Below, in pieces: positions 30,001 through 36,000 of a DNA stretch of 64,000 nucleotides. Each line of letters starts with the position of its first letter. Within the stretch, counting starts at the first letter, position 1. Position numbers: made by a program. Source of the stretch: Myxococcota bacterium. GTDB lineage: Bacteria; Myxococcota_A; Bradymonadia; UBA7976; UBA1532. The stretch is taken from assembly GCA_036337435.1 (NCBI GenBank), contig JAYZEG010000041.1:1-64000 (forward strand), given 5' to 3'.

Positions 30001-33000
30001 GTCGTCACACCTGATATGCTTAAAGCCTGCAGTTGGCCCGCACCCATGGGTGCTTTGGGATCTTTGGGTACATGGCGATAGAATAGGCCGTCCTTACGGT
30101 CTTCGGTCATGTAGACAATGCCTGTTTTTGGGTCGAGTGCCACCGCTTCCCTTGGAAACCGACCCCAGCTGGAAATTCGACGTGGCTGGGTGAGCTTCGA
30201 ATCCGTTGGCTTGGTTAGGAAAGCATATCCATGGTCCGGTTTGCCGGATTCTTCGCAGGTGACCCATCCTCCTGGAATTTGACCTCCAGCACAGTTGACA
30301 TCGGTACCGGCTAAGACGAAATTTGAGCTAAGAACCGCTTTCGAAGAGGTGCTCTTATTCGTTTTGAGCTCGTCGAGCAGAGTGTCTTTCTGAAGAACAA
30401 CCCGCGTCACACCTCCGTAAAATCCTGGGGTGTAACACGGTGTTGGTACGTCTTTCGTCGGGTACGGATTCAGTGAATAGCCATACCGTTCTACGAAATT
30501 CTGGTCACCCAATTCGTGGTTACGCAAGAGGATATATTGACCCTCCGGCCCAGGGAAACAGGCCATGCCATCGGGTTGTTGTGGCATCTTGAAACCATCG
30601 GAGAAGGCATCACCTGCCGTTTGGATTACGGTGTATGAAAACCCTTTCGGCAGGTCGAGCAACTGGCCGACACGGTCTTCCAATGGGCCGAAGCCTGGCG
30701 TTTTCTGGCCGACAGCCTTTTTGACTCTAACAGTAGACGCGTCGGAGTTCGCCTTGGCCGTCTTTTTCTGCTTTATACATCCGGTCACGAAGAATGACAG
30801 TGCAGTGACCCCGGTTACGCCCACAAACTCGCGGCGACGTATCATATTCTACCTCCGATGACATTGGCGAAAGAGTACATCAAACATGTGTTCGACCACC
30901 AATAGCTAGAGTGTTTTTGCTACGCAAAAGTAACGAAACTTTATCAAATGAACCTATTGGTCCATAGGATTCCGTTAGCATAGATGGACGCCAAACACGA
31001 AGATTGATTGGGGCGGAGACCAATGGGTTTATTGATAGATGGACTGTGGCATGACAAATGGTACGACACTGAATCCACCGGCGGCCGGTTTGTACGCAGT
31101 GAATCTCAGTTCCGTCATTGGGTGACAGCCGATGGACGTCCGGGTCCGACGGGCGCAGCTGGCTTTAAAGCGGAGCCAAACCGGTATCATCTCTATGTCT
31201 CGCATGCGTGCCCGTGGGCTCATCGGACCATGATTGTGAGACAGCTCAAAGGGCTCGAAGGGTTGATCAGTACGTCCGTTGTCAACTGGGTCATGAGGGA
31301 ACATGGCTGGACCTTCGCGCCGGGACCGGGCGTCGAACCCGACCCGGTCATGAACGCTGACTACATGCACCAAGTTTATACCGCGTCATGTCCAAACTAT
31401 ACGGGGCGGGTGACCGTACCAGTTTTGTGGGATCGCAAGACCAACCAGATCGTCTCAAACGAATCGTCGGATATCATTCGGATGTTTAATGATGCGTTTG
31501 ATGATTGCGGAGCACGTTCACTCGACTTGTATCCCGTATCCTCCCGAAAGGAGATCGATCGTTGGAATAAAGAAATTTATGCATCCGTCAACAACGGTGT
31601 CTATAAGGCTGGGTTTGCAACAGATCAGGCTGTTTATGAAGCTCAGGTCAAAAGACTATTCAGCACTCTGGAGACTATCGAGACGTCCTTGGGTCAGACT
31701 CGTTTTCTCACGGGCAGCCAAATCACGGAGGCTGATTGGCGGCTGTTCACGACCTTAGTTCGATTCGACGCTGTTTATGTGGGGCACTTCAAATGCAATT
31801 TAAAGCGGCTCATCGATTTCCCAAATCTTTGGGGGTACACGCGCGCCCTCTACCAACAGCCGGGCATTCAAAAGACTGTCCACATGGACCACATCAAAGG
31901 GCACTACTACCAAAGTCATCCACAGCTCAATCCAACAGCCATTGTCCCAAGTGGTCCTGAGCTGGATTTCGACCTGCCTCACAATCGCTAGGCCGTGCGC
32001 TCGCACCATCGTCATGACGACGGTAAATGAGCCGCTGGCCACTTTTTTTTGTGAGATCCAGTCCACAGGGCGCGTCCCTTTACGTGACTCGTATATGACC
32101 CTGACTGGAGGACTTATCATGAACACATTACGCGTATTCCTGATGGCCAGTTTTTTGGTGTCTGGTGTTGCGTCGGCGGCCCCAAACCCAAGGACGGCTC
32201 CCGTGACTGTTGCTCATACAGCGGCCTCCCAAGACCAAATGCAAGGGATTTGGTACTCCCTCAATGTTGCTGATGACGACGAAGAACGGGTTCGTGTCAT
32301 CGCATCGGTCGCACGGCAATATTACTTCTCGCCCATTCAGGCGGAGGCCTTGATTCAGGTGGTCTTTGATGGCGAGGCTCGGGCAGAACTGGTTCATTTA
32401 TATGCAGGCCGTCTGACAAAGGTCAGCGGCGTGAAACGGTTAATGACGCTGGTTCCCGAAGGCCGCGTGCGCGACAATCTAGCAAGCCGTTTGGCGGGTC
32501 GTTCTTCGGGTGCTCTTTGAACGCGATTTGATCACTCGTCAGCGGCCAATTGTTTGGTCTCAGCAGCGATGTTGCCTTTCCACATATTATCGCGGTTGGC
32601 CCGGCCTGCATTGGCGCGTTTGGCTGCGCGCTGTCGATCCACCAAATCTGCATGGGTGGTAAAATAGGGCAAAGAATGCCCGATGCAGTCTGCGACGCTT
32701 GAAAACTCATGTTTGTCGAGGAAATCAGACAGGCCCGTACAAAGTTCTTCGATGAGTTCATAACCCCTCAGCATCGCACCCGTACAAACCTGGACGGTAC
32801 TTGACCCAAGCAAGATGAACTCGGCTGCATCGGCAGCGGTTTCAACGCCGCCCATACCGCTGACAGGGACATCGGGAAACATGCGTGCAAGTTCCATTAC
32901 GTGACGCAATGCGATGGGTTTGACGGCCTGTCCAGAATACCCACCCGGAACCGTATAGCCCTCGACCGTGGGCATGGGGCGCAGCGTTTTTAAGTTAATA

Positions 33001-36000
33001 CCGCACACACTCAAAATCGTGTTGATCGCTGATATGCCATGAGCACCAGCATCGATTGCCGATTTTGCGGGTACGGTGATGTTGGTGATGTTTGGGGTCA
33101 TTTTTGCCCAGACGGGAATCTTGGAGACCTCCATACACCAGCTGGTTACTTCGCCCACAATGTCAGGGTTCTCGCCCATGGCCATACCCATCTTCCGCTC
33201 GGGTAAACCGTGGGGACAGGAGAAGTTCAGCTCGAAGGCATCGACTCCAGTTTCCTGAGTACGCTCTATGATCTCGCACCAGGCGTCTTTATTGTATTCT
33301 TCCATGACCGAGGCGATCAGGATTTTGTCAGGGTGTTTTTGTTTGCACGATGCCAGGTCATCTAACCAGGCCTCGAACGGTCGGTCGGAAATCAGCTCGA
33401 TATTCTCGAAACCGATGACGGTTTTGTCTGTCCGACTTTTTAGACGTGCATAGCGGGGCACCGTGTTGTGGACCTTGCTGTTATCGAGGCTTACTGTTTT
33501 GCAGACAATACCGCCCCAACCCAGGTCAAATGACCGATTGATCACCTTTGCATTTGTACCCGGAGGCCCCGAGCCGAGAACGAATGGATTGGGGAATTTC
33601 ATCCCGTTTACTTCTACACTTATGTCCGCCATTTCTTCCCCCTCAATGAACCGGTGATAGACTTTCACTATCTCGGCGACTGGCCATTTAAGTTCCCCAA
33701 ATACGCCGCAGCCACTTGGCCCCGTGGTACGGTCGTCTCCCGTCTTGTGGATACGTCACCTTACAATGAATGGACGCATCTGCAAATTGTCCATCGGCCT
33801 TGCCTTATGTTTTATCTAGCTCACGTGTTTACGAGAGCCTACGTTTAGTCGTTCAGACAGAGCCCAAGGCGCGTCTCATCAGCGACCGAGAGCTTCATTT
33901 ATCTCCGCCAGGCAGTTCGCTTTTTGAAGCTGGTTTTGATGATTTTGCGTCGGGTTTCTTGAGTAATCGTCGCTATCTCCGCTATGAATGTATCCTTGGA
34001 GAGGGAGAACTCTATGACCTACGCCACGACACGATACGCAAGTTTAGCCCTTCTGTTTTTTCTGTCGGCCGGATGCGGGGATGACAAAGCAGCACCCGTG
34101 CGCATCCACGACGGGGGCACATCGAGAGATCTTGCGCTGGGCAGCGGTGGCTTCGGTGGCATGGCAACGCAGCCAATGACTGACCTGGGCTTGATCAACC
34201 CATCGGACGCGGGACCGGTTATCGACCGGGGCGGCACAGGTGGCGCAGCAGGAGCTGGCGGCGCAGGGGGGACCGGCGGGGCTGGTGGTACGGCCGGCAC
34301 GTCCATAATCGACGGTGGGCCCTCGGGACCCCAGTGCGGAGACGGTCGAGTCGACATCGGAGAGGATTGTGATGATGGCAATGTTCTCGATGGAGATGGC
34401 TGTAGTTCCATCTGCCAGCGAGAACCGGCGTGTGGTGATGGCGTCGTTGACCTTGGGGAAGCGTGTGACGATGGCAATGTCATCGATGGAGATGGCTGCA
34501 GCGCCAACTGTGCTCTAGAACCCCGATGTGGGGACGGTGTTCGAACGGCTGGAGAGCAATGCGATGACGGAAACAACCTTGATGGTGATGGCTGTTCATC
34601 CACGTGTCGTGATGAACCTGCTCCACGGTGTGGCAATGGGATCGTTGAGGCAGGAGAGGCGTGTGATGACGGCAACAATTTGAATCAAGACGGCTGCTCC
34701 TCTAATTGCCAAAACGAAGCACCTGCCGTATGCGGAGATGGCATCCAAACCAATGATGAAGCCTGTGATGATGGCAACAATCTCAATGGTGATGGGTGCT
34801 CAGCGCAGTGCGAAATTGAAGCGGAGGAACCTCGGTGTGGAAATGGTGTCCAGGATCCCGATGAAGCATGCGATGATGGAAACAATATCGACGGTGACGG
34901 TTGCTCTGCGAACTGTGCGAGAGAGGGGGGCCAAGTCATACTCGACGATGGACAGCTCGGTTGTGTCGCCATTTCTCAGTGTCTCGTCGCCTGCCCAGAT
35001 GGAGACCAAAATTGCAGTAATGCGTGCATCGCGACAGGCACACTCATAGGCCAAATCCGATTTAACGAACTTCGTCAGTGTATCGTTGAGAACGAATGCG
35101 TCGTCGGTAATGAGGTGGATGCTGACTGCATAGAGGCCAATTGTGCACAAGAGGAGGAGGCGTGCTTTGGCGCATCGGTCGATCCTGTTGGGATGGCGTC
35201 TTGTACCGAACTCATCGAGTGCGTCGAGAGATGTGACGGCCTCAATTGCATTCGTCAATGTATTCGGACTGGCAGTGAGATGGGCTATGAGTTGGCCTAT
35301 GCCCTTGACGAATGTGTTTTTGATATCAATCAGTGTGATTCCAGACAGAGCGACTGCGCTCTCGACAATTGTGGGGCTGAACTGACGGCGTGTTTTGGAC
35401 AAGCTGTCTGCGGGAATGGTCGGCGTGAACTTGGAGAAGAATGTGACGATGGAGATCGAATAGACGGCAATGTATGCAGCAATCTTTGCCAGGTCAATCC
35501 GTTCTGCGGTGATGGTAATCGCGACGCTCAAGAAGGCTGCGATGATGGCAATCGCTTAGACAGCGATGGCTGTTCATCCCTCTGTGTTGTAGAGCCGATT
35601 GTGGACTTGGAACAAGGCCAAATCGACTGCCGGACCCTAAATACCTGTTTGGGTAACTGTGACAATGGCGATGATGTATGCATAGACGCGTGTGTCGCGG
35701 ACGCGTCATTGCTGGGTGCGACTCGGTTCTCGGCACTCACGGATTGTGTGGTCCAAAATCAATGTAATGAGGCTGCTGACATCGATGACGATTGCCTCAA
35801 TGAAAATTGTCGTGACGAATATTTAGCCTGTTTTGGAGCTCAGATTTATCCGCGTGGTCAATCGACGTGTGAAGACCTGGTTGCCTGCGCAGACCGATGT
35901 GCAGATACCAACTGTGTACGGCGCTGCATTGGAAATTCGACGGAGCGAGCCTTCGAGGTGGCAGTTGCGCTCGATGAGTGTGTGTTTGATGAAAATAACT

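What a model noticed while it worked through the whole genome (the two positions that open the first line are those of the whole stretch)
32532..33632. Plant-type short dihydropyrimidine dehydrogenase (PYD1) without Fe-S domain or PreT replaces PreT/PreA in this genus
g01625 (366 aa) is a bacterial counterpart of plant PYD1: it lacks the C-terminal Fe-S domain and has no PreT partner, whereas most other genera of the order use Fe-S-bearing PreA. It belongs to a wide bacterial family that sits in pyrimidine-degradation operons without any PreT, a bacterial model for the open question of how plant PYD1 gets its electrons.
Evidence so far: 56% identical to Arabidopsis PYD1 (418 bits) against 43-44% to PreA (246). 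Short form in all 4 genus genomes and one sister genus; 21 other order genomes match at 40-45%, 7 of 7 checked with two CxxCxxCxxxC motifs; 0 of 120 best homologues (about 366 aa) have the motif. PreT domain PF14691 in 0 of 4 genus genomes, present in the one other genus tested. Of 80 loci in Myxococcota and Planctomycetota, 49 hold beta-ureidopropionase, 45 a dihydropyrimidinase-like gene, 46 an aldehyde dehydrogenase, 0 a PreT. This genome has beta-ureidopropionase and the aminotransferase (g01674-75). PMC9930899 (passages, call 110): plant enzyme inactive alone, partner not found, bacterial precedent given only as [...]
(Added by a program. Inside this text positions count along the whole contig: contig position 1 is position 1 of the stretch shown here. 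"Call 12" and the like, gene names such as g00115 and contig names such as C1 are that model's own, and its searches are not shown. The text may have been shortened before it was handed on; [...] marks where a part breaks off. The agent that wrote the report below was given it as the finding of a first reader that could run no searches.)

Follow-up and report, generated by a model that had tools for sequence, protein, structure and literature searches.

The report
Bacterial plant-type uracil-reducing enzyme
This marine bacterium carries a stripped-down version of the enzyme that starts uracil breakdown, the same version plants use, and it lacks the usual electron-supplying partner, so such bacteria may help solve how the plant enzyme is powered.

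Summary
Confirmed. Window 32532-33632(-) encodes an intact 366-aa dihydropyrimidine dehydrogenase (DPD) barrel. The catalytic residues are kept, the Fe-S domain is absent, and a conserved tail (basic helix, D348-x-x-W351) is shared with green-plant PYD1. In barrel-only trees, Myxococcota/Planctomycetota, Verrucomicrobiota and green-plant Fe-S-less enzymes form one clade (100/97). The Verrucomicrobiota branch, not this gene, is the plants' sister. Descent from the order's own PreA is rejected (AU p=4e-38), so the gene replaced PreT/PreA. No PreT occurs in 180 loci. 25 of 34 short-form genomes lack any PreT/GltD-like gene, while 20 of 20 PreA controls have PreT. Relatives sit in uracil-to-acetyl-CoA clusters; here the gene stands alone. 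No dedicated electron donor was found. Flavodoxin, a diflavin reductase, a 2x[4Fe-4S] ferredoxin and PyrK fail as family-wide donors; a housekeeping [2Fe-2S] ferredoxin is the only tested carrier present in most genomes. Best guess, inferred and untested: ferredoxin reduces FMN directly. A PreT-less, ferredoxin-driven DPD is known (clostridial PydAc) but keeps its Fe-S domains. Nine searches found no paper on this bacterial family.

The parts
32532..33632 (-). Gene for the 366-aa FMN-only, plant-type dihydropyrimidine dehydrogenase (P0001)
   Evidence: the only DPD-like gene in the assembly, the other PF01180 gene being a quinone-type DHODH
33638..33644 (-). Ribosome-binding-site-like GAGGGGG, 5 nt before the ATG at 33632
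   Evidence: function inferred
32718..33620 (-). FMN TIM-barrel (aa 5-305). K45, N77, K177, N204 and T205 match pig DPD K574, N609, K709, N736 and T737
   Evidence: PF01180; counted from the alignment; invariant in 147 rows; the roles of these residues are recalled
33210..33227 (-). Active-site loop N136-F-S-C139-P-H141; C139 = pig C671, the proton donor
   Evidence: alignment; C671 role from a PMC8097209 passage
32643..32687 (-). Linker (aa 316-330), homologous to the PreA linker that precedes the ferredoxin domain
   Evidence: hhalign probability 93%
32535..32642 (-). Tail (aa 331-366) in place of the 2x[4Fe-4S] domain: basic helix, invariant D348 and W351 (32580-32591), acidic end; shared with green-plant PYD1
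   Evidence: model pLDDT 57-82; no profile similarity to the ferredoxin domain

Best explanation
It is the first enzyme of reductive uracil/thymine breakdown (uracil to dihydrouracil, then beta-alanine, then acetyl-CoA). It belongs to the same Fe-S-less family as plant PYD1 and entered this genus by replacing the PreT/PreA pair. FMN in the barrel passes a hydride to uracil and C139 donates the proton. With no FAD/NAD(P)H subunit and no Fe-S wire, FMN is most likely re-reduced one electron at a time by a general, separately encoded low-potential carrier, most likely a [2Fe-2S] ferredoxin docking on the basic tail. Shown: family, residues, loss of Fe-S, absence of PreT, gene context, replacement. 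Inferred: activity (about 0.9). Weakly inferred: ferredoxin as donor (about 0.5).
For: Catalytic residues kept. Fold is closest to pig DPD: Z 41.5, rmsd 2.6, 337 aligned, against Z 35.7 or less for DHODH. A separate quinone DHODH and dihydroorotase cover biosynthesis. 62 of 80 genome loci hold at least one pathway gene and 44 hold both hydrolases; neighbours pass TIGR02033, TIGR01722 and TIGR00800. It is the only DPD-level match in 50 of 50 short-form genomes. No PreT/GltD-like gene in 25 of 34 or in 5 of 5 in the order. No recurring redox neighbour in 180 loci, which fits a housekeeping donor. A [2Fe-2S] ferredoxin-like gene is found in 5 of 5, 42 of 50 and 24 of 29 genomes; flavodoxin in only 6 of 49, the CysJ-like reductase in 5 of 50 and the YfhL ferredoxin in 13 of 50. 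The tail helix has net charge of +2 or more in 333 of 333 sequences with the motif (358 examined), and the 23 ferredoxins are -7 to -19. Papers: the rice enzyme is inactive with NAD(P)H (PMC9930899); cytosol-targeted Arabidopsis PYD1 is inactive (PMC3223058); clostridial PydAc uses ferredoxin (PMC7332683).
Against: No activity has been measured. The ferredoxin is an ISC-like housekeeping gene (below the TIGR02007 cut-off), so its presence is expected anyway. It was not found in 5 of 29 phylum-sample genomes, one of them 98% complete, and it never lies next to the gene (0 of 180 loci). The tail ends in an acidic stretch (-3 to -4) that could simply pair with the basic helix. PydAc lost activity when its Fe-S clusters were not reconstituted, so an Fe-S-less enzyme must work differently. 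This assembly lacks dihydropyrimidinase. The nitrilase-family neighbour scores as well against N-carbamoylputrescine amidohydrolase (208 bits) as against beta-ureidopropionases (185-200).
Confidence: 0.5

Rival explanations
1. It is a DPD served by a dedicated but still unrecognised partner subunit encoded elsewhere in the genome, with a counterpart in plastids.
For: The plant papers postulate such a protein. The invariant D348/W351 tail looks like an interaction site. Only five named candidates were tested; whole proteomes of relatives were not compared.
Against: Obligate subunits usually travel with their partner: PreT is adjacent in 19 of 21 PreA loci. No redox gene recurs in 180 short-form loci from three phyla, although the five other pathway genes do. 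The gene moved into this genus without a visible companion.
Confidence: 0.2
2. It binds NAD(P)H directly in the pyrimidine site (ping-pong), as FMN-only tRNA-dihydrouridine synthases do (recalled), and needs no partner.
For: No partner is visible. Many members carry a precomputed PF01207 (Dus) hit, and the protein has a weak DusB-model hit (26.8 bits, cut-off 293).
Against: The rice enzyme was inactive with NADH and NADPH in both directions, though truncation or the tag may be to blame, as the authors say. Cytosolic Arabidopsis PYD1 was inactive.
Confidence: 0.12
3. It is promiscuous and takes electrons from whichever reduced carrier the cell has (ferredoxin, flavodoxin, free reduced flavin), with no preferred partner.
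For: No tested carrier is universal. The family works in very different hosts, including plastids.
Against: Inactivity in the plant cytosol and the strictly conserved tail argue for some specificity.
Confidence: 0.1
4. It is not a reductase in vivo: it is a dihydrouracil oxidase (like fungal DHO) or a dihydroorotate dehydrogenase.
For: FMN-only relatives can be O2-dependent dihydrouracil oxidases (PMC9585004 passages).
Against: It clusters with enzymes that consume dihydrouracil. It has the DPD-type NIELIS motif and groups apart from PyrD in the tree. A separate DHODH exists. Plant pyd1 mutants accumulate uracil (PMC3223058 abstract).
Confidence: 0.05
5. It borrows a GltD/NfnB-like or PyrK subunit from another enzyme.
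For: 30 of 50 genomes have a PF14691 hit. PyrK-like motifs lie beside class-1B PyrD in 5 of 16 regions fetched.
Against: None in this genus, in 20 of 50 or in 25 of 34. The hits are 30-37% identical, and several sit behind a glutamate synthase large subunit. 27 of 50 genomes gave no class-1B PyrD hit, and this genome's DHODH is the quinone type.
Confidence: 0.03

Closest known systems
Plant/green-algal PYD1 (plastid dihydropyrimidine dehydrogenase)
   Same: 55-60% identity over nearly the whole length to named plant and algal proteins, no Fe-S motif, same GSGPPGTN start and TTH...DxxWxG tail; one clade, 100/97.
   Different: No transit peptide. It lacks the short insert before the S258 strand that plants and Verrucomicrobiota share. 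It is a bacterial gene, and its branch is one step further from plants than the Verrucomicrobiota branch.
PreA/PydA2 of bacterial PreT-PreA DPD (E. coli type) and mammalian DPD
   Same: Barrel, catalytic Cys and linker; passes NCBIfam NF006183, so it is annotated as PreA.
   Different: No C-terminal 2x[4Fe-4S] domain and no PreT/GltD-like partner; 40-45% identity; a separate clade, with AU rejecting a common clade with the order's PreA.
Clostridial ferredoxin-dependent PydAc (PMC7332683)
   Same: No FAD/NAD(P)H domain; sits in Pyd clusters; precedent for ferredoxin as donor.
   Different: PydAc keeps ferredoxin domains and needs reconstituted clusters. That paper's survey required a [4Fe-4S] domain, so it could not see this family. 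PydAc itself was not placed in my trees.
Extended Pyd pathway with PydD and MSDH (as drawn in PMC7332683 Fig. 1C legend)
   Same: Clusters hold dihydropyrimidinase, a ureidopropionase-like hydrolase, a class III aminotransferase, a CoA-acylating semialdehyde dehydrogenase and an NCS1 transporter.
   Different: No PydA1/PreT gene. The third step is nitrilase-type in Myxococcota/Planctomycetota and M20-type in the Verrucomicrobiota branch.

Membership tests
Plant-type PYD1 | DPD barrel with catalytic Cys and uracil/FMN residues | tested here: met
Plant-type PYD1 | No C-terminal Fe-S domain and no N-terminal FAD/NADPH domain | tested here: met
   366 aa, PF01180 only, no motif
Plant-type PYD1 | C-terminal TTH...DxxWxG tail | tested here: met
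   D348 and W351 invariant in 52- and 147-row alignments with plants and algae
Plant-type PYD1 | One clade with green-plant enzymes to the exclusion of Fe-S DPDs | tested here: met
   100/98, 100/98 and 100/97 on barrel-only trees
Plant-type PYD1 | Reduces uracil in vivo | not testable with these tools
   inferred from residues and gene clusters only
PreA of PreT-PreA DPD | Score above the NF006183 cut-off | tested here: met
   413.6 vs 335, but only positions 1-331 of 422
PreA of PreT-PreA DPD | Two CxxCxxCxxxC motifs | tested here: not met
   0 motifs; 21 of 21 order PreA have two
PreA of PreT-PreA DPD | PreT partner in the genome | tested here: not met
   PF14691 absent in 5 of 5 short-form order genomes, completeness 70-100%
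Clostridial PydAc | Retains ferredoxin domains | tested here: not met
   no Fe-S motif
Clostridial PydAc | Uses reduced ferredoxin | not testable with these tools
   only carrier presence and surface charge were examined
Class 1 dihydroorotate dehydrogenase | Score above the PyrD family cut-offs; groups with PyrD | tested here: not met
   203 vs 270 and 197 vs 269; PyrD-1B is the outgroup, 100/100

The most novel reading that the evidence does not exclude
One Fe-S-less DPD family spans Myxococcota, Planctomycetota, Verrucomicrobiota and plastids. Its FMN takes single electrons straight from a [2Fe-2S] ferredoxin that docks on a basic tail built where the Fe-S domain used to be, with W351 as a relay. 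Green plants acquired PYD1 by transfer from a Verrucomicrobiota-like bacterium, and their long-sought partner is simply plastid ferredoxin.
Probability: 0.3. Interest if true: 0.82.

Novelty: new variant of a known kind. Interest (0 to 1): 0.62.

Why it matters
How plant PYD1 gets its electrons has been stated as open from 2009 to 2023 (PMC2713857, PMC3223058, PMC9930899). These genomes narrow the answer. The enzyme family exists in cells with no PreT/GltD-like protein at all, usually no flavodoxin and no co-travelling partner, which points to a general carrier and to a simple experiment the rice study did not report: reduced viologen or ferredoxin as donor. The tree gives plant PYD1 a likely bacterial origin. 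The family is mis-annotated as PreA, and 35 of 195 DPD-bearing genomes in a 401-genome sample of this phylum score as the short form.

Tried and rejected
CysJ-like diflavin reductase as partner: in 5 of 5 own-group genomes, but only 5 of 50 other short-form genomes and 15 of 25 other order genomes. YfhL 2x[4Fe-4S] ferredoxin: 13 of 50. Flavodoxin: 6 of 49. PyrK: this genome's DHODH is quinone-type. A partner among neighbours: 237 representatives of 454 unlabelled neighbours gave only single cases (Rieske, CDGSH, nitroreductase, QueG, cytochromes c) and one weak FAD oxidoreductase; gene calls came from my own simple predictor, backed by a six-frame scan for PreT and ferredoxin only. W351 as remnant of an Fe-S cysteine: MAFFT puts W-x-G on the C-x-G of the second motif and the structural range ends at pig 997-1000, but profile comparison beyond the linker gives 0.1% and the tail is modelled with low confidence, so it is not claimed. 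'Plants nested inside bacteria': the best trees show it, but a tree with all bacterial short forms together is not rejected (AU p=0.112). Root on PyrD-1B places the Fe-S-less clade inside Fe-S DPDs only weakly (89/67). RNA-library contigs from 3 studies cover parts of 32099-33173, but the runs were found with this gene and contigs give no strand or level, so this is no proof of expression. The Atlas gave only DHO_dh clusters. Earlier findings: none. The Witte and Herde review was not held.
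Full report
Observation. The gene lies at 32532-33632 on the minus strand and gives 366 aa with no internal stop. Its start is supported by a GAGGGGG site 5 nt upstream and by homologue lengths (median 366). Pfam finds only PF01180. 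It passes NCBIfam's PreA model but covers only positions 1-331 of 422, which explains why relatives are deposited as 'PreA'. The best solved relative is pig DPD (246 bits, aa 2-305). Counting along that alignment, K45, N77, N136, S138, C139, H141, K177, N204 and T205 match pig K574, N609, N668, S670, C671, H673, K709, N736 and T737; all are invariant in 147 rows. The role of C671 is from PMC8097209 (passages); the other roles are recalled. The model (pLDDT 84.5, tail 57-82) matches pig DPD at Z 41.5, rmsd 2.6 over 337 residues, above DHODHs at 35.7 or less. The genome's only other PF01180 gene is a quinone-type DHODH.

Local context. The gene stands alone, between a convergent 133-aa ORF without Pfam hit and a divergent SRCR/DUF4215 protein. 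Profiles built from relatives find the nitrilase-type hydrolase and the aminotransferase 58 kb away on the same contig, and the CoA-acylating semialdehyde dehydrogenase and NCS1 transporter on other contigs. Dihydropyrimidinase is not in this 87%-complete assembly (its best hit is dihydroorotase) but is in the three congeners.

Distribution and loss of PreT. In the order, 26 of 31 genomes have a DPD: 5 short and 21 PreA. All 21 PreA have two CxxCxxCxxxC motifs, and 19 of their 21 small loci show PreT next door. PF14691 is absent from the 5 short-form genomes and present in 25 of the other 26. I searched 50 of 77 further short-form genomes (chosen for diversity; completeness not given). 20 have no PF14691 hit. 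The best hits of the other 30 score at most 368 bits on a PreT profile, against 626-783 for intact order PreTs, most of which trained the profile; several sit behind a glutamate synthase large subunit. In 50 of 50 the short form is the only DPD-level match. In a 401-genome phylum sample, 195 have a DPD-like gene and 35 score as short form (514 bits or more; 55 weaker matches were not listed). The 20 that I cut out were all short with the D-x-x-W tail. Of 34 short-form candidates (32 by score, 2 partial), 25 have no PreT/GltD-like match and 9 have only 30-37% matches, while 20 of 20 PreA genomes picked as controls have PreT at 44-67%. Three genomes occur in both sets, and kin are not independent.

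Gene clusters. Of 80 genome loci (the best of 416), 48 hold dihydropyrimidinase, 47 a nitrilase-family hydrolase, 45 the semialdehyde dehydrogenase, 42 a class III aminotransferase and 27 NCS1. A second subfamily of about 379 aa, named Verrucomicrobiota/Chthoniobacter where named, has 0 of 119 Fe-S motifs. Its 80 metagenome loci (best of at least 480, median 6.9 kb) hold the dehydrogenase (55), an M20 hydrolase (52), dihydropyrimidinase (33), NCS1 (21) and the aminotransferase (20). The ureidopropionase labels rest on context: PDB scores do not separate them from related amidohydrolases. Across all 180 loci a six-frame scan found no PreT and no ferredoxin, and Pfam on 237 representatives of 454 other neighbours found no recurring electron carrier or flavin reductase.

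Family tree. A 50%-cluster search put a green-algal protein first. Its 118 other homologues (plants, green algae, unnamed) are a median 57% identical to this protein, none has the Fe-S motif, and 113 align into the tail. Trees used the barrel only. From a 100-row FastTree I dropped 40 long-branch or redundant rows, then swapped 10 rows for Verrucomicrobiota and 10 for a PyrD-1B outgroup (mixture model). The result is (Myxococcota/Planctomycetota 99/96, (Verrucomicrobiota 100/100, green 100/98) 100/99) 100/97, with a deeper unnamed Fe-S-less pair outside (99/97). A clade of this genus's enzyme with its order's PreA is rejected (p-AU 4e-38), so this is replacement, not local truncation. Against the transfer-to-plants reading: holding all bacterial short forms together is not rejected (p-AU 0.112), the root is weak (89/67), and cyanobacteria, red algae and glaucophytes were not examined.

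The tail. Residues 316-330 are homologous to the PreA linker; beyond that there is no profile similarity to the ferredoxin domain. The tail has a basic helix (net +2 or more in 333 of 333 sequences with the motif, of 358 examined; means +3.9, +4.7 and +5.0), invariant D348 and W351, and an acidic end. The structural alignment runs to pig residues 997-1000, the end of the second cluster motif (C986-C996, counted). The tail may therefore fill the place of the Fe-S domain, but this is a low-confidence hint.

Electron donor. Candidates in this genome were tested for family-wide presence: CysJ-like reductase 5 of 50, YfhL ferredoxin 13 of 50, flavodoxin 6 of 49, and class-1B PyrD, as a proxy for PyrK, at most 23 of 50. 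The ISC-like [2Fe-2S] ferredoxin was found in 5 of 5, 42 of 50 and 24 of 29 (2 of the 8 earlier misses were recovered). That is a necessary condition only, is expected of a housekeeping gene, and is not fully met. I commit to ferredoxin at about 0.5 because the rice enzyme is inactive with NAD(P)H (PMC9930899, abstract and passages), cytosolic PYD1 is inactive (PMC3223058, passages), and PydAc shows ferredoxin can drive a DPD (PMC7332683, parts 1-3 of 4 read, covering the main text). PydAc needs its clusters, however, and docking could not be predicted here.

What is known. PMC2713857 (passages) notes that plant PYD1 and Brevibacillus PydA lack the GltD domain and that the partner is unidentified. 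PMC7332683 surveyed only proteins with a [4Fe-4S] domain, which excludes this family. PMC9585004 (passages) describes fungal FMN-only dihydrouracil oxidases. Nine searches listed no paper on a bacterial Fe-S-less DPD or on a plant donor. The library lacks most subscription papers, one review was not held, and I read no supplements; those of PMC9930899 (alignments) and PMC7332683 could bear on novelty.

Verdict. A real, intact bacterial member of the plant PYD1 family and, as far as these searches reach, an undescribed variant of bacterial DPD. It excludes PreT/GltD-like partners and makes the plant question testable with simple assays, but the donor is not shown. Interest 0.62.

Noticed in passing
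window 33984-37274 (+): 1096-aa protein with DUF4215 Cys-rich repeats, an SRCR domain and a PPC-like domain, divergent from the gene; also beside it in two congeners.
   Followed up: no
G000 contig C82:16088-21219 (L320): Three FNR-like genes within 5 kb, one most like cyanobacterial PetH and ending in Tyr, one Fpr-like, all below cut-offs; not seen in the four relatives' PF00175 search.
   Followed up: partly
G027:C298:7107-8108: Glutamate synthase large subunit in a genome with no PF14691 hit, possibly ferredoxin-dependent; the other four short-form genomes lack it.
   Followed up: no
P0170, P0258, P0261: A deeper, unnamed Fe-S-less DPD lineage (365-373 aa, 36-39% identity); P0170 and P0258 keep the D-x-x-W tail and branch outside the plant/bacterial clade, P0261 lacks the Trp.
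   Followed up: partly
G193:C76:24811-26118, G359:C115:4179-5462, G288:C14:42632-43933: PreT genes in three genomes each with one in-frame TGA inside the match; could be selenocysteine, a split gene or an error.
   Followed up: no
L008:2245-4728 (+): Major-vault-protein-like gene directly downstream of a short DPD in a Myxococcota MAG.
   Followed up: no
L149-L220 (Verrucomicrobiota-type loci): A GNAT acetyltransferase follows the DPD in 32 of 80 loci, and a rubrerythrin-VIT1 fusion lies inside 15 clusters.
   Followed up: partly
P0127, P0137, P0162, P0175, P0204 and others: 830-880-aa proteins with the DPD barrel in the second half and Fe-S motifs, probably fused PreT-PreA, scattered over the tree; N-terminal halves not checked.
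   Followed up: no
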